Shown here one piece after another: positions 22,602 to 30,237 of a DNA stretch of 64,000 nucleotides (position 1 is its first letter; every line of letters begins with the position of its first letter). Below the pieces are notes generated by a model. That model searched no databases, had not been told where the DNA came from, and saw only the letters and a program-made list of their open reading frames with translations. The translations under genes were made by a program, and so were the position numbers. Source of the stretch: Candidatus Altimarinota bacterium. Lineage in GTDB: Bacteria; Patescibacteriota; Gracilibacteria; UBA1369. Location: NCBI GenBank assembly GCA_963677745.1, contig OY782391.1, positions 672,001 to 736,000 of the forward strand. Direction: 5' to 3'.

Positions 22602-23545
22602 TGACGAAAAATTTTCTCACCACCACAGCCGTTTTGATAGCCACCATCCTGATTGGGGGTAATTATTGTTGGGCGCAGGTTCAGGAACCGACCCTTTTGC
22701 TCACTGATACAGCCCCGATTGTCGATACTACCCTTGTGAAAAGCTTAACCACTACGGCTCCGCTCACAATCATAGACAGAACCAGCCTGATCTCCCCGCT
22801 GGGGACCGCCACGACCGTTACCCCTACGGACACAGCAACCGGCTCAACCACCGGCACCGGAACCTCCACTCTGGGCACGCCTCCCTCCACAAACACTTCA
22901 ACCACCGATACCACAACGGGCGGAACAACTGCGGCTACCGGGACTTTCGTCCCGTCTGTCACCGACACCCGTACCCCGGCCACCACGACACCCGGATCAA
23001 CCGCGCCAGCCACCGGCACGTTCACGCCACGTATCCCGCCTGATGTAACCGTCGTTACCGATGTCCCGGCCGACACCACCACGGAAGAATGCCCGCCAAT
23101 CAATCCCCTTTCCGGTCAAAACGTGGAATGCCCCAAAACTGAGAAGGTCCCGGTAATCCCCCGCGTTCCCTATATTCTGCTCGCCACCCCTCTACTGGGA
23201 GTTTTGCTGTTCTGGCTGGTCATTTCTCTATTGTCCAGGCAACAGGTAAAGCTGGAACAGACTTACAGCAAAAAGCATCTTTCCTCACATCACCGGCAGA
23301 ATGTAAAAACCGCCCAAACCGGACTGTACCGGGAAATTGTGGAATTCATCTCATCCAACCTTTCCTCCGGCACCAAACTTGACCCGGCCAGTCTGCAAAA
23401 ATTCTCGGCAAAAATAGAACTACTAGGCTCGGCAGAAATGAAAACCCGCCATCAGGAACTTCTAACCGCCTGCCAAAAGGGCAATCGCGACCTGATCAAA
23501 CAGTCACTCAAAAGTTACACCGCGCAAATCAAGAAAGAGCTTTAA
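22601..23545 (+). CDS. Thr/Pro-rich (mucin-like) single-pass membrane protein
   Basis: Signal peptide, ~140 aa T/G/P-rich stalk, Cys pair, TM helix, cytoplasmic helical domain; TGATG-coupled to the upstream gene. Confidence 0.75.
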   Translation: MTKNFLTTTAVLIATILIGGNYCWAQVQEPTLLLTDTAPIVDTTLVKSLTTTAPLTIIDRTSLISPLGTATTVTPTDTATGSTTGTGTSTLGTPPSTNTSTTDTTTGGTTAATGTFVPSVTDTRTPATTTPGSTAPATGTFTPRIPPDVTVVTDVPADTTTEECPPINPLSGQNVECPKTEKVPVIPRVPYILLATPLLGVLLFWLVISLLSRQQVKLEQTYSKKHLSSHHRQNVKTAQTGLYREIVEFISSNLSSGTKLDPASLQKFSAKIELLGSAEMKTRHQELLTACQKGNRDLIKQSLKSYTAQIKKEL

Positions 23546-23885
23546 TTCCGGTAATTTTTTCACGTGTCTTTCGCTGACGTCGCTTCTTTTGCTTTTTCAG
23601 TTTCTCTTTTTTAGCACCTCTGCCGGATTTCTTGCCAAGCATTTGTTCTTCGATTTTAGCAACCAGTAAGCGGTAAGCGGACAGCCGGTTACCCCACAGT
23701 TCCCTGAATTTCTGTACCCGCACTTCCTGGCCCGTCGGCAGATGCTTCAGTTGGACGCAATTAACGCTCTTATTAATTTTCTGCCCGCCCTTACCTCCTC
23801 CCTTGGTCAGTTTCTCCTCAAAATCGACCCATCTCAAACCCAGGGCAAGCATCTTGGCTTCCAGTTTTTCATCTTTGAAGTCCAT
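23529..23885 (-). CDS. Small codon-independent GGQ release-factor homolog (ArfB/mtRF-R C12orf65-like)
   Basis: GGKGGQKINK...VQLKHLPTG..V..Q..R....NR..A plus very basic C-terminal tail; start set at MDFKDE because the upstream part of the ORF is an RNA gene. Confidence 0.9.
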   Translation of the reverse strand: MDFKDEKLEAKMLALGLRWVDFEEKLTKGGGKGGQKINKSVNCVQLKHLPTGQEVRVQKFRELWGNRLSAYRLLVAKIEEQMLGKKSGRGAKKEKLKKQKKRRQRKTREKITGIKALS

Positions 23886-23900
23886 CCGGCGTAAAAATAA

Positions 23901-23975
23901 TGGTGGACCCCAGAAGTTATTCACTCCTGAACGCGACGCTTGCGCAAAGCGTCTAGCGCAGAACGCTAAAGGCCC
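23901..23975 (-). ncRNA. Non-canonical tRNA-Ala-like RNA (75 nt)
   Basis: GGGCCUU-UA-GCGU(UCU)GCGC-UA-GACGC(UUUGCGCAA)GCGUC-GCGUUC-AGGAG(UGAAUAA)CUUCU-GGGGUCC-A-CCA; four stems, G3:U70, A73, encoded CCA. Confidence 0.75.
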
Positions 23976-23985
23976 ATGTGAGAAC

Positions 23986-24013
23986 ATCCTAACAAAAATC
24001 CCTGAATTTTCAA
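23986..24013 (-). promoter_or_regulatory. Sigma70 promoter for the tRNA-like RNA/GGQ gene
   Basis: TTGAAA-N16-TAGGAT with extended TG, ending 10 nt before the RNA 5' end. Confidence 0.6.
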
Positions 24014-24603
24014 CCTTCACCGCTTTTCGGGCTTGATCTTTTTTTCAAAAAATTAATCACCGCCAGTTTATATCTGTGGGCCAGAAGCAATAAACAAAGC
24101 GTCAAATCCCGCTCCTTATGTTCCGACTCACAATAAACTTCCACAAGCCTGTTCGACGAATTTTGATAAACCGCCTCTATTTCCTGTTCCGTACAGGCCA
24201 TTCTGAACTCTTTTATAGTCAGCCTCAGGACCCGTCTGACAGGTTTGATTTTTGCCCGATCATAGAGACTTTCTACCTCCAATTGCTCTTCCGGCGTTAA
24301 GGCGGGAAGCTTAGGTTTAACTGGTAAAGGACCGTTCAGCTGATCGCCGCGCTGTCGAACCGCCCGTGCCAGACTCATATCCAGTACATGAAAATCCTCC
24401 TTTCTGTAATCAGACACCAGATAAACGCCCTCCAAATGCCGTCTGGCGTGTTGCCAGATTTCATATATTTCAGGCCGTGTTTTGGCTACCGCCAGCTCTG
24501 CCACCGTGCCGTAAAAGTAGGTCAAAGCGTCCCGCTTCCTCACTTCGTCGTAAAGCGGCTTTAACTCATTTTCATATATTTTTAATCCGTTTATTTCTTT
24601 CAT
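24010..24603 (-). CDS. Hypothetical protein with an internal two-fold helical repeat
   Basis: 197-aa ORF with AT-rich upstream region; two ~70-aa similar halves. Confidence 0.65.
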   Translation of the reverse strand: MKEINGLKIYENELKPLYDEVRKRDALTYFYGTVAELAVAKTRPEIYEIWQHARRHLEGVYLVSDYRKEDFHVLDMSLARAVRQRGDQLNGPLPVKPKLPALTPEEQLEVESLYDRAKIKPVRRVLRLTIKEFRMACTEQEIEAVYQNSSNRLVEVYCESEHKERDLTLCLLLLAHRYKLAVINFLKKRSSPKSGEG

Positions 24604-29796: not shown

Positions 29797-30237
29797 TGGT
29801 GGAGATGCCGGGAGTCGAACCCGGGTCCATAAAAATCAGGTACAAACGTCTACAATCATAGTCACATTTGGTTAGGCATAAGGAATAAAGATGTGACGAA
29901 AAGCTCCTTTTGCCTGGTTTTGGTGAAACTACATCCGGTCTCAAAACGCCAAACCGTCCGGATAAGTCCCGCTAGTGTCATAAGGTCCGAAATAGCGGAG
30001 TCATTCGGCTTACGACCTCAGAGTTTGTGGTCCGAGGATTTTGGCTGCTCTAGGCAACGTTTGCCAAAGCGAACGTTCTTGGAGCGAAAACTGTAGCCAA
30101 GTTATTGGCTTCATTTCTCATGGCCTGTGCAATTTGATTTGCATCTATGTTTGTACCGACGGATCTGACGGGAGACGGTACCATCCCGTGATTGCTGTTT
30201 GTAAAAGAACATCTATGTCGAATGCCAATACATCCCC
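29797..30237 (-). ncRNA. ssrA: tmRNA (441 nt)
   Basis: 5' GGGGAUG.....AUUCGAC; 3' GACCCGGGUUCGACUCCCGGCAUCUCCACCA; G3:U70; tag frame after AUAGAU: GCA AAU... ending FALANVA-stop (30142..30050). Confidence 0.95.

What the first reader, a model, noticed from the sequence alone, without database searches (positions are those of the whole stretch)
23529..24013. Hidden tRNA-Ala-like RNA with remodelled loops, apparently co-transcribed with a GGQ ribosome-rescue factor
Seen: a 75-nt cloverleaf with acceptor GGGCCUU/GGGGUCC (G3:U70), A73 and CCA. The D, anticodon and T stems all pair. However, the D loop is only 3-5 nt with no GG, the anticodon loop is 9 nt (UU-UGC-GCAA, able to zip into a 7-bp stem), and the T loop is UGAAUAA instead of UUCRA. 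It has its own promoter and ends 15 nt before an ArfB/C12orf65-like gene. Known: G3:U70 alone suffices for AlaRS charging, and staphylococcal non-proteinogenic tRNA-Gly species lose the D-loop GG and T-loop TPsiC. Inference: intact stems with all loops altered point to selection rather than decay. It could be an alanylated non-decoding RNA used in ribosome rescue or Ala-tailing with the GGQ factor, a non-ribosomal Ala donor, or a tRNA-mimic leader/processing site controlling the rescue factor.
Basis: partly seen in the sequence, partly recalled or inferred. Interest (0 to 1): 0.9.

Follow-up and report, generated by a model that had tools for sequence, protein, structure and literature searches.

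The report
Anticodon-less tRNA-Ala-derived RNA family
A small RNA that descends from an alanine tRNA has lost its anticodon and both tRNA loops, yet keeps a frozen alanine-accepting end across a clade of ultra-small groundwater-type bacteria, so it is probably a carrier of alanine that cannot read codons.

Summary
Window 23901-23975 (- strand) is a 75-nt cloverleaf (z = -3.4) that ARAGORN and Rfam do not call. It is a paralogue of the genome's own tRNA-Ala.

It belongs to a conserved family. A covariance model finds one copy in 11 of 36 genomes of the family and none in 128 genomes of 18 other families of the order. A metagenome scan adds 4 new variants.

Across 15 distinct sequences, 97.7% of pair cells pair and 9 pairs show double changes (0 of 500 shuffles reach this). 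The acceptor stem (G3:U70, tandem U:G), A73 and CCA are essentially invariant.

The usual form is 63-67 nt. The "anticodon arm" is a 5-6-bp hairpin capped by UUU, UUCG or GCAA. The UGC loop in this window comes from a 12-nt insertion specific to this lineage.

The element has its own conserved promoter. It sits 7-51 nt upstream of a classical-ArfB/C12orf65-type GGQ gene in 8 of 11 genomes, and persists without that gene downstream in 3.

Best reading (0.5): a trans-acting RNA that cannot decode, is matured like a tRNA and is charged by AlaRS. Its target is unresolved: FemX-type cell-wall transferases or ribosome rescue. A purely cis processing role remains possible. No expression or charging data exist.

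The parts
23986..24013 (-). Promoter-like site TTGAAA (24013-24008), a 16-nt spacer, then TAGGAT (23991-23986), preceded by TG. It ends 10 nt before G1 of the RNA.
   Evidence: Found by the consensus scan. A comparable TTGnnn-16/17-TAnnnT site ends 10-20 nt before G1 in 14 of 15 distinct family members.
23901..23975 (-). The tRNA-Ala-derived RNA, 75 nt, made of these pieces:
- acceptor 5' strand 23975-23969
- hairpin 1 (D-like) 23968-23954
- hairpin 2 23953-23935, which carries the lineage-specific ~12-nt insertion
- linker 23934-23930
- hairpin 3 (T-like) 23929-23911, sharing G65 with the acceptor
- acceptor 3' strand 23911-23905
- A73 at 23904
- CCA 23903-23901
   Evidence: Fold z = -3.41. 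R1 scores it 76.7 bits and R2 75.6 bits. Covariation is shown.
23886..23900 (-). 15-nt spacer UUAUUUUUACGCCGG between CCA and the start codon. It is AU-rich and I see no Shine-Dalgarno-like GGAGG.
   Evidence: Sequence. In relatives the spacer to the first ATG is 7-52 nt.
23529..23885 (-). Gene for a 118-aa GGQ protein of the classical ArfB / C12orf65 (mtRF-R) type. The GGQ motif is at residues 33-35 (nt 23789-23781), and the C-terminal tail is basic.
   Evidence: Pfam RF-1 4e-15. Best solved relative is C12orf65, 7a5h_C, 4e-13. The NCBIfam ArfB equivalog scores only 20.4 bits against a cut-off of 100. The N-terminus M(M)DFKD is conserved in close relatives. Open frames upstream of it are not conserved in length: 122-137 aa in G024, G001, G003 and G002.
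24010..24603 (-). Upstream 197-aa protein of unknown function ('UP'). It is a fast-evolving family built from one or two ~90-aa modules, and it often lies directly upstream of the RNA.
   Evidence: No Pfam or NCBIfam hit. It is present next to the element in G018 and G023, where the GGQ gene is not adjacent.
29797..30237 (-). tmRNA gene (context), 5.8 kb upstream on the same strand.
   Evidence: ARAGORN. Rfam RF00023 scores 105.7 bits. A tmRNA lies 1-8 kb from the GGQ gene, on the same strand and contig, in 21 of 36 family genomes.

Best explanation
The element is a stand-alone gene for a small RNA that cannot decode. It arose once, by duplication of a tRNA-Ala gene, in the ancestor of one sub-clade of a family of small-genome bacteria. 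Record titles of two hits with identical element sequence read Candidatus Peribacteria and Peregrinibacteria.

Selection has kept the acceptor/T-stem stack, the AlaRS identity set (G3:U70, G2:C71, A73) and the encoded CCA. The D arm, anticodon arm and T loop have been reduced to three short capped hairpins around a tight four-way junction. The only conserved single-stranded part is ACCA-3'.

Proposed mechanism:
1. Transcription from its own strong promoter. The RNA fold and the promoter motif are shown; activity is inferred.
2. Removal of the 5' leader by RNase P. This is inferred: U at -1 in 13 of 15 members, and a type A RNase P RNA is present.
3. Charging with alanine by the single AlaRS, which here lacks the C-Ala domain. 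This is inferred from established minihelix biochemistry.
4. Exclusion from decoding, because there is no anticodon loop and no elbow, and the 51-63 T-stem pair is of a weaker type. The structure is shown; the consequence is inferred.
5. The alanyl-RNA then serves as an alanine donor off the decoding pathway.

My first choice for the user is the FemX-type aminoacyl-tRNA transferases of cell-wall synthesis, found in 35 of 36 family genomes (about 0.3 absolute). Second is a ribosome-rescue use alongside the adjacent GGQ factor (about 0.15-0.2).

In this genome, and in 7 others, the GGQ gene rides on the same transcript.
For: Descent from tRNA-Ala:
- The first 11 nt, TCAGGAGT and GGTCCACCA are identical to the genome's own tRNA-Ala(GGC).
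- In the own genome, R1 hits only the element and the three tRNA-Ala genes.

Conservation and structure:
- Found in 11 of 36 family genomes and 0 of 128 genomes of 18 other families.
- 8 of 11 metagenome pattern hits are true members.
- There are 15 distinct sequences.
- 97.7% of pair cells pair, 9 pairs have double changes, and 0 of 500 shuffles reach any of the five measures. Slid controls pair only 34-53%.
- All 14 relatives fold to the same shape, with z from -2.3 to -4.1.

Acceptor end:
- 5 of 6 counted acceptor pairs never vary and G3:U70 is present in 15 of 15. ACCA is invariant.
- By contrast, the wobble pairs 51:63 and 6:67 do switch between G:U and Watson-Crick.
- The acceptor stems of genuine tRNA-Ala genes vary among these genomes.

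No anticodon: hairpin 2 is capped by UUU, UUCG or GCAA.

Independent gene:
- It has its own promoter in 14 of 15 members.
- It is retained intact with no same-strand downstream gene in G018 and G004, and ahead of a different gene in G023.

Parallel with staphylococcal non-proteogenic tRNA-Gly:
- The 51-63 pair is A-U in 10 members, G:U in 4 and C-G in 1, against G-C in 19 of 19 genuine tRNA-Ala genes.
- NP tRNA-Gly have A49-U65, U50-A64 and A51-U63 and bind EF-Tu weakly (PMC7826273, passages read).

Possible user:
- FemX of Weissella needs only G1-C72, G2-C71 and ACCA, and the acceptor stem suffices (PMC2655667, passages).
- FemAB family genes occur in 35 of 36 family genomes.

Charging and maturation:
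- Bacterial Ala identity is A73, G2-C71, G3:U70, G4-C69 and G20, with no anticodon element (PMC9976931, table passage).
- The genome's AlaRS is 633 aa with no C-Ala/DHHA1 domain.
- RNase P RNA is present.
Against: - There are no expression, end-mapping or charging data. No RNA run holds the region.
- The whole acceptor stem is frozen, positions 4-7 included. AlaRS identity alone does not explain that, so G3:U70 cannot be singled out statistically.
- The sequences come from one clade (one gain and one loss on the AlaRS tree), so they are not independent.
- The Fem link is weak. Fem genes occur with and without the element.
- The second Fem paralogue (at least 53% identity) is found in 13 of 36 family genomes. 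These include the three that lost the element, but not G010, which has it.
- The fem genes are far from the element.
- The genomic neighbourhood (GGQ gene adjacent, tmRNA 1-6 kb away) points towards translation rescue or simple co-expression rather than the cell wall.
- G20, a minor Ala determinant, is absent.
Confidence: 0.5

Rival explanations
1. Cis-acting module. The promoter plus tRNA-like structure would serve as a processing and punctuation signal, like the tRNA-like t-elements of plant mitochondria or tRNA-mRNA co-transcripts (both recalled from memory). RNase P and 3'-end enzymes would cut it out and so define the 5' end of the GGQ mRNA. Any charging would be incidental.
For: - The element lies 7-51 nt upstream of the GGQ start in 8 of 11 genomes, and 13-73 nt upstream in 3 of 4 new metagenome variants.
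- No terminator-like site and no second promoter lie between them in the window.
- The spacers lack a Shine-Dalgarno sequence (my reading).
- In 11 of 20 element-less relatives the GGQ gene has a -10-like box 5-8 nt before the ATG. That suggests a leaderless mRNA which the element could have replaced (no chance control).
- An acceptor/T stack plus CCA and U(-1) is what a bacterial RNase P substrate needs (established knowledge).
Against: - G018 and G004 keep an intact element with only a convergent gene downstream. G023 keeps it ahead of an unrelated P-type-ATPase-like ORF.
- Processing does not require G3:U70 or A73, yet they never change in 15 of 15, while other wobble pairs do.
- The GGQ gene is expressed without the element in most relatives.
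- Spacer length is not conserved.
Confidence: 0.22
2. Ribosome-rescue cofactor. The alanyl-RNA would enter the empty A site of the peptidyl-transferase centre of stalled ribosomes or split large subunits, without mRNA or EF-Tu. It would accept the nascent chain or add alanine, acting with or in parallel to the co-transcribed classical-ArfB/mtRF-R-like hydrolase.
For: - It is adjacent to, and probably co-transcribed with, the GGQ gene in 8 of 11 genomes.
- The best solved relative of the protein is C12orf65/mtRF-R, which in entry 7a5h sits on a large subunit carrying peptidyl-tRNA (its role is recalled, and reviews are listed).
- tmRNA lies 1-8 kb away in 21 of 36 family genomes, and the element stays 1.1-2.7 kb from tmRNA even where the GGQ gene has moved.
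- No NFACT_N/RqcH scores above the cut-off, and no small S4-only protein is found in the own genome. The usual Ala-tailing machinery is therefore not seen.
Against: - The GGQ gene has a strong match in 52 of 61 related genomes, while the RNA is in 11.
- The two have been separated at least twice.
- The neighbourhood is syntenic as a whole, so adjacency may only reflect inherited gene order.
- tmRNA and SmpB are present and complete.
- The T loop and D loop, which tmRNA keeps for ribosome and SmpB contacts, are lost.
Confidence: 0.17
3. Uncharged or charged decoy. The RNA would mimic a tRNA-Ala acceptor arm and so titrate or regulate a protein that reads that arm, such as AlaRS, RNase P, the GGQ protein's basic tail or the unknown upstream protein.
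For: - The full-length invariance of the acceptor stem, including the tandem U:G pairs at 6:67 and 7:66, suggests a sequence-specific reader beyond AlaRS. Genuine tRNA-Ala genes do not share those pairs (U7-A66 in 19 of 19).
- A fast-evolving protein of unknown function lies directly upstream in most genomes.
[quoted passage not shown] I saw the title only and did not read the paper.
Against: - No partner has been identified. The upstream protein has no family hit and no Atlas hit, and it is absent next to the element in G001, G004 and G006.
- Nothing here distinguishes this reading from the donor model.
Confidence: 0.08
4. A decaying tRNA-Ala pseudogene whose stems pair by chance.
For: ARAGORN and Rfam do not recognise it, and all three loops are non-canonical.
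Against: - The same architecture is kept in 15 distinct sequences across at least 9 genera.
- 22 pair cells carry double changes, and no shuffle reaches the observed covariation.
- The promoter is conserved.
- The ACCA end is invariant.
Confidence: 0.02

Closest known systems
Non-proteogenic tRNA-Gly isoacceptors (NP1-3) of Staphylococcus aureus / S. epidermidis
   Same: Both are a paralogue of a normal tRNA that keeps the synthetase identity set. Both lose the canonical T-loop triplet and the D-loop GG. Both have an A49-U65 / A51-U63-type T stem associated with weak EF-Tu binding. Fem-family transferases are present in the genome (PMC7826273 passages).
   Different: The staphylococcal RNAs are full-size tRNAs with an anticodon arm. 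This family has no anticodon loop at all, is specific for Ala rather than Gly, is 63-67 nt long, and lies next to a rescue-factor gene. That paper states such tRNAs had so far been detected only in the two staphylococci. Use by a Fem enzyme is untested here.
tRNA-like domain of tmRNA
   Same: Both have an alanine acceptor stem with G3:U70, A73 and CCA, lack an anticodon, and are charged (or chargeable) by AlaRS. Both lie in the rescue-gene neighbourhood.
   Different: This RNA has no mRNA-like domain, tag reading frame or pseudoknots. tmRNA keeps a canonical T arm (GGUUCGACUCC in this genome), whereas this RNA does not. Rfam tmRNA does not match it. Its sequence derives from tRNA-Ala, not from tmRNA.
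Synthetic tRNA-Ala minihelices and microhelices (Francklyn & Schimmel 1989; cited in PMC9976931, reference list seen)
   Same: Both are an acceptor/T-stem stack with G3:U70 and ACCA, a sufficient AlaRS substrate without the anticodon or the tRNA core.
   Different: Those are laboratory constructs. This is a natural, conserved gene with two extra capped hairpins at a four-way junction.
tRNA-like processing signals: plant mitochondrial t-elements and mascRNA (both recalled from memory); Rfam RF01684
   Same: Both are tRNA-derived structures next to mRNAs that RNase P-type enzymes can cut, with no decoding role.
   Different: Those elements do not conserve an aminoacylation identity set or an encoded CCA. 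RF01684 does not match this element. This family persists where there is no mRNA downstream.
Classical ArfB / C12orf65 (mtRF-R) GGQ proteins (for the neighbouring gene)
   Same: It has an RF-1 GGQ domain and a basic C-terminal tail and is about 118 aa. The best solved relative is C12orf65. C12orf65 is grouped with classical ArfB in PMC6514570 (passages).
   Different: It scores below the NCBIfam ArfB equivalog cut-off (20.4 against 100 bits). No link of this protein family to a tRNA-like gene was found in the passages I read.

Membership tests
Canonical tRNA (Rfam RF00005; tRNA-Ala) | Recognised by tRNA detectors and the covariance model | tested here: not met
   ARAGORN finds 0 tRNAs at the element in the window and in all 15 member loci. 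There is no RF00005 match at E<=10 or E<=5.
Canonical tRNA (Rfam RF00005; tRNA-Ala) | 7-nt anticodon loop on a 5-bp stem, presenting an anticodon | tested here: not met
   14 of 15 members have a 4-7-bp hairpin with a 3-4-nt cap (UUU, UUCG, GCAA). The window's copy has a 5-nt loop on 7 bp after a 12-nt insertion.
Canonical tRNA (Rfam RF00005; tRNA-Ala) | D-loop G18G19 and T-loop UUCRANY forming the elbow | tested here: not met
   The D-like hairpin has 3-6-nt caps without GG. The T-like loops are UGAAUAA, UUAAUAG, CCUAAAG and similar. The 19 genuine tRNA-Ala genes all have TTCGAnn or TTCAAGT.
Canonical tRNA (Rfam RF00005; tRNA-Ala) | 7-bp acceptor stem, discriminator base and CCA; Ala identity G3:U70, G2:C71, A73 | tested here: met
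   Invariant in 15 of 15 members. The identity set is taken from the PMC9976931 table.
tmRNA | tRNA-like domain plus an mRNA-like tag reading frame and pseudoknots; RF00023 | tested here: not met
   The RNA is only 63-75 nt and has no RF00023 match. The real tmRNA lies at 29797-30237.
Non-proteogenic (cell-wall) tRNA | Paralogue of a proteogenic tRNA that retains the synthetase identity elements | tested here: met
Non-proteogenic (cell-wall) tRNA | T-stem pairs 49-65, 50-64 and 51-63 of the weak EF-Tu type | tested here: inconclusive
   49-65 is A-U in 15 of 15. 51-63 is A-U in 10, G:U in 4 and C-G in 1, against G-C in 19 of 19 genuine tRNA-Ala genes. However, 50-64 stays G-C in 12 of 15. No affinity was measured.
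Non-proteogenic (cell-wall) tRNA | Used by a Fem-family transferase and not by the ribosome | not testable with these tools
   FemAB genes are present in 35 of 36 family genomes, but their amino-acid and RNA specificity is unknown.
tRNA-like mRNA processing element (t-element type) | Always abuts the end of an mRNA that it helps to define | tested here: not met
   In G018 and G004 only a convergent gene lies downstream.
ArfB (NCBIfam NF006718) for the neighbouring protein | Scores above the equivalog cut-off | tested here: not met
   20.4 bits against a cut-off of 100. The Pfam RF-1 domain is met at 56.2 bits against 35, and the GGQ motif is present.

The most novel reading that the evidence does not exclude
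The RNA would be a natural 'macromolecular puromycin' or mini-tmRNA. It would be an alanine-charged acceptor arm without an anticodon that needs neither mRNA, EF-Tu nor RqcH. It would reach the peptidyl-transferase centre only on ribosomes or split large subunits whose A site stays empty. There it would take over or alanine-tag the nascent chain, working with the co-transcribed mtRF-R-like GGQ hydrolase and in the same neighbourhood as tmRNA. That would be a third, RNA-only route of ribosome rescue or Ala-tailing.
Probability: 0.15. Interest if true: 0.95.

Novelty: new variant of a known kind. Interest (0 to 1): 0.75.

Why it matters
AlaRS is one of the few synthetases that ignore the anticodon, so a tRNA-Ala can in principle shed everything but its acceptor arm and still be charged. 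That was shown with synthetic minihelices decades ago. This family looks like nature doing the same thing and then keeping the result under selection.

If it is charged, it would be the first dedicated alanine carrier without an anticodon, apart from tmRNA. The paper I read says dedicated non-decoding tRNA paralogues were so far detected only in staphylococci, so this would extend the idea to the candidate phyla radiation.

It would also bear on two open questions: how ultra-small bacteria split aminoacyl-tRNA between translation and the cell wall, and how they rescue ribosomes without RqcH.

Practically, the family escapes ARAGORN and Rfam. A covariance model now exists to annotate it.

Tried and rejected
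No earlier findings were seen.
- The genome contigs pattern scan was too permissive. By my regex only 2 were members (L082, L090), and both are identical to the elements of G002 and G001. No second scan was available.
- In the metagenome scan, 11 stretches were found. 8 match R1 at 64.9 bits or more. L185 (26.5 bits, GC 0.73) was dropped as a chance hit. L182 and L190 gave no match.
- Sequencing runs: no RNA holder is listed. Read laying was not used, because contigs of DNA runs cannot show RNA ends.
- The longer reading frame (GTG 24020, 163 aa), which would make the element coding, is rejected. Close relatives start at M(M)DFKD, and their open frames (122-137 aa) end inside or just before the element.
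- Co-occurrence with a Fem paralogue: the distribution follows the clade, with one gain each. It also has exceptions both ways (G014, G029 and G017 have the paralogue without the element; G010 has the element without the paralogue found). It is therefore not usable as evidence of coupling.
- RqcH-type Ala-tailing: NFACT_N is below its cut-off. S4 domains occur only in three large reading frames. LPG_synthase_C (MprF type) was not found.
- The upstream protein has no Pfam or NCBIfam family and no ESM Atlas hit. It was not detected near the GGQ gene in 23 element-less loci by tblastn, but it evolves fast, so this is weak.
- Phage collection: no match.
- AlaRS tree: the row for G010 was the wrong reading frame, because the longest ORF of a truncated locus was taken. 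Its placement must be ignored. G001, G008, G012, G021, G026 and G027 were not in the tree, as only 30 loci were returned.
- Literature searches found no description of such an RNA: 'Peribacteria'+'tRNA', 'tRNA-like' with CPR/Patescibacteria terms (none of the 15 listed papers holds 'tRNA-like'), mtRF-R/RqcH terms and release-factor evolution.
- Supplementary files were not opened. The tRNA tables of PMC4736985 and the gene-neighbourhood data of PMC6514570 might bear on this.
- Not used: structure prediction, fold search, complex prediction, the search for homologous proteins, the search of protein representatives, the listing of cluster members, the search for related loci.
Full report
**What is at the site.** On the - strand, 23975-23901 reads GGGCCUUUAGC...GGGGUCCACCA.
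- It folds as a four-helix cloverleaf at -33.0 kcal/mol. Shuffles average -22.85 (sd 2.98), z = -3.41, and 0 of 200 shuffles fold as well.
- ARAGORN finds only the tmRNA in the window.
- Rfam finds only the tmRNA at gathering thresholds. It finds nothing tRNA-like at E<=10 around the element.
- A TTGAAA-16-TAGGAT site ends 10 nt before G1, and no terminator-like site separates the RNA from the next gene.
- That gene starts 15 nt after CCA. It encodes a 118-aa GGQ protein: Pfam RF-1 4e-15, best solved relative C12orf65/mtRF-R 7a5h_C at 4e-13, and the ArfB equivalog at only 20.4 bits against a cut-off of 100.

**Origin.** The genome is one 1.336-Mb contig with 47 tRNA genes called by ARAGORN. 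All 47 end in encoded CCA, and they include tRNA-Ala CGC, GGC and UGC.
- The element shares its first 11 nt, TCAGGAGT and GGTCCACCA with tRNA-Ala(GGC).
- A covariance model of the element hits only the three tRNA-Ala genes besides itself in this genome.
- It is therefore a tRNA-Ala paralogue.

**It is a conserved family.** Upstream regions of the GGQ gene in relatives showed the same element in 6 further genomes.
- Model R1 then found it above 50 bits in 11 of 61 related genomes, all in the window's own family, and in 11 of 36 genomes of that family.
- The weaker 27-36-bit hits are 76-77-nt stretches. For the 18 such loci I examined, they are ordinary tRNA-Ala genes.
- Model R2 found it in 8 of 151 genomes sampled from the order. 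All 8 are in the same family; 0 of 128 genomes in 18 other families have it.
- A metagenome pattern scan gave 11 stretches, of which 8 are members, adding 4 new variants.
- Two genome-contig hits carry element sequences identical to those of G002 and G001. Their record titles name Candidatus Peribacteria and Candidatus Peregrinibacteria.
- None of the 15 distinct members is called by ARAGORN or matched by any Rfam family (6 loci tested).

**Structure and selection.** On the 15 distinct sequences (alignment A3):
- 97.7% of pair cells form standard pairs. 9 of 23 pairs carry double changes (22 cells). None of 500 shuffles reaches the observed value on any of the five measures.
- Sliding the partners drops pairing to 34-53%.
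- Hairpins 1, 2 and 3 each have three pairs with compensatory changes. In G023 the T-like stem is CACCUG/CGGGUG instead of CAGAAG/CUUCUG.
- All 14 relatives fold to the same shape on their own, with z from -2.27 to -4.12.
- The acceptor helix is almost frozen. G1-C72, G2-C71, G3:U70, C4-G69 and C5-G68 never vary. U6:G67 becomes U6-A67 once. ACCA is invariant.
- The hairpin caps are UUCG, GCAA, UUUA, CUUG, UUU and the like. These are structural caps, not conserved loops.
- So the only conserved unpaired part of the RNA is its ACCA 3' end.

The family form is 63-67 nt.
- The window's 75 nt result from an insertion of about 12 nt in hairpin 2 that no other member has.
- The 'UGC anticodon in a 9-nt loop' is that insertion. 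Elsewhere hairpin 2 is 4-7 bp with a 3-4-nt cap.
- There is no anticodon, no D-loop GG and no T-loop motif. The RNA cannot decode.

**History.** On an AlaRS tree of 30 family genomes (one row, G010, was a wrong frame and must be ignored):
- The element-bearing genomes lie on one side.
- The label needs two changes: one gain, and one loss in the nested lineage G017+(G014,G029).
- A sister group of 17 genomes has none.
- Kin are not independent, so the 15 sequences represent one origin followed by long retention.

**Context.** The local gene order is: SLH/cupredoxin-like gene, a fast-evolving unknown protein ('UP'), the element, the GGQ gene, then two convergent membrane-protein genes.
- The GGQ start lies 7-51 nt after CCA in 8 of 11 genomes, and 13-73 nt after it in 3 of the 4 new metagenome variants. 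The fourth contig ends 98 nt after the element.
- In G018 the element follows UP and faces a convergent gene; the GGQ gene is 2.1 kb away.
- In G023 the element follows UP and precedes a P-type-ATPase-like ORF; the GGQ gene is on another contig.
- In G004 the element sits 6 nt after the SLH-gene stop and faces a convergent gene. The GGQ gene is at the end of another contig, so a second unassembled copy cannot be excluded there.
- 14 of 15 members have a TTGnnn-16/17-TAnnnT site ending 10-20 nt before G1, and 13 of 15 have U at -1.
- The GGQ gene itself has a strong match (E<=1.9e-17) in 52 of 61 related genomes, so it does not depend on the element.
- No ordinary tRNA lies within the 30 GGQ loci, which removes the 'simple pseudogene of a local tRNA' refutation.
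- A tmRNA lies 1-8 kb upstream of the GGQ gene, on the same strand and contig, in 21 of 36 family genomes. The element stays 1.1-2.7 kb from it in G004, G018 and G023.

**Weighing the mechanism.** The promoter, the U(-1), the encoded CCA and the presence of a type A RNase P RNA fit tRNA-like maturation.
- Bacterial alanine identity is A73, G2-C71, G3:U70, G4-C69 and G20, with no anticodon element (PMC9976931, table passage). The element has the first three. It has C4-G69, as 14 of the 19 genuine tRNA-Ala genes examined also do. It lacks G20.
- That minihelices with G3:U70 are charged is established work (Francklyn & Schimmel 1989; I saw only the citation).
- The genome has one AlaRS of 633 aa, with catalytic and editing domains but no C-Ala/DHHA1 domain. 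The elbow-binding role of C-Ala is recalled from memory.
- If the RNA is made and matured, charging seems hard to avoid. A single U70-to-C change would abolish charging while strengthening the helix. That change is never seen in 15 of 15, although 51:63 and 6:67 do toggle between wobble and Watson-Crick. I take this as the best argument that charging is selected. I rate 'charged and used as such' at about 0.55-0.6.

**Which user?** There are two candidates.
- Cell wall. FemAB-family genes are in 35 of 36 family genomes, and this genome has two. Their best NCBIfam match is the FemX alanyltransferase model, but far below its cut-off. FemX of Weissella contacts only G1-C72, G2-C71 and ACCA (PMC2655667).
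- The element also parallels staphylococcal non-proteogenic tRNA-Gly in its altered loops and in 49-65 and 51-63 being A-U type (PMC7826273). But co-occurrence gives no independent support, and nothing links the genes physically.
- Ribosome rescue. The GGQ gene and the tmRNA neighbourhood favour this, as does the absence of RqcH (NFACT_N below its cut-off) and of a small S4 protein. However, the synteny is inherited as a block, the GGQ gene is far more widespread than the RNA, and the elbow that tmRNA keeps is gone.
- I put the Fem-type donor at about 0.3 and rescue at about 0.15-0.2.
- A purely cis processing role is about 0.2-0.25. It explains the adjacency and the missing Shine-Dalgarno sequence. 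It may also fit the leaderless-looking GGQ genes of the sister clade (11 of 20 loci, no chance control). It does not explain the two or three genomes with no downstream gene, nor the frozen identity set.

**Novelty.** No Rfam family matches and no phage sequence matches. The searches found no paper describing it. The Peribacteria genome paper reports 46 tRNA genes and does not mention it in the passages I read. I file it as a new variant of a known kind: tRNA-derived RNAs that do not decode.

**Limits.**
- There are no expression data.
- All members come from one clade.
- E-values of the home-made models are rough.
- Supplementary files were not opened.

Noticed in passing
window 29797-30237 (-), and positions in relatives: A tmRNA gene and the small GGQ gene lie on the same strand and contig, 1-8 kb apart, in 21 of 36 family genomes. 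This includes the sister clade that lacks the tRNA-like RNA. It may be a conserved rescue-gene neighbourhood or plain family-level synteny.
   Followed up: partly
L233:3213-3284 (+) and L233:4333-4404 (+) = own genome C1:320712-320783 and C1:321832-321903 (outside the window): Two 72-nt tRNA-like elements have G3:U70, A73 and a canonical T arm, but end in CGA and CCG. Each is enclosed by a helix formed by its flanks. They bracket a NERD-domain ORF (L233:3429-4166). ARAGORN does not call them. The Rfam tmRNA model gives 30.2 and 26.0 bits, below its gathering score.
   Followed up: partly
L234:2362-2432 (-) = own genome C1:1106861-1106931 (outside the window): A 71-nt tRNA-like gene has a G3:U70 acceptor stem, A73 and CCA, a 3-bp D stem and a canonical T arm. 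ARAGORN labels it tRNA-Ser(UGA). Rfam mascRNA-menRNA scores 41.9 bits (gathering score 42.5). The tmRNA model gives many 70-72-nt sub-threshold hits in relatives, so this may be a second family of odd alanine-type tRNA-like genes.
   Followed up: partly
L008-L028 (GGQ loci of relatives without the element): In 11 of 20 loci a -10-like hexamer lies 5-8 nt before the in-frame ATG of the GGQ gene, for example TATAAT-GACTTC-ATG. This suggests leaderless mRNAs. No chance control was run.
   Followed up: partly
window 24010-24603 (-), and neighbours of the element in L002, L003, L021, L039, L041, L051, L184, L186-L188: A fast-evolving protein family of unknown function lies directly upstream of the element in most genomes. 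It is built from one or two ~90-aa modules and has a recurring (V/I)xxI(F/W)(Q/E)xAR-like stretch. No Pfam, NCBIfam or Atlas hit was found.
   Followed up: partly
L225:1462-3363 (+) = own genome AlaRS (outside the window): The single AlaRS is only 633 aa, with catalytic and editing (tRNA_SAD) domains and no C-Ala/DHHA1 domain. Open frames of 616-708 aa across the family suggest this is general. On the AlaRS tree the lineage of this genome (G000, G002, G024) sits on very long branches of 0.56 and 1.28 changes per site.
   Followed up: partly
window 23935-23953 (-): The window's copy alone carries an insertion of about 12 nt in hairpin 2. It lengthens the stem to 7 bp and leaves a 5-nt linker. 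This shows that the hairpin tolerates changes in size.
   Followed up: yes
L037 and L051 (G010 contigs C57 and C122): The element and the start of the GGQ gene occur on two contig ends of the same assembly, with a few differences in the protein. This may reflect strain variation or a collapsed or duplicated assembly region.
   Followed up: no
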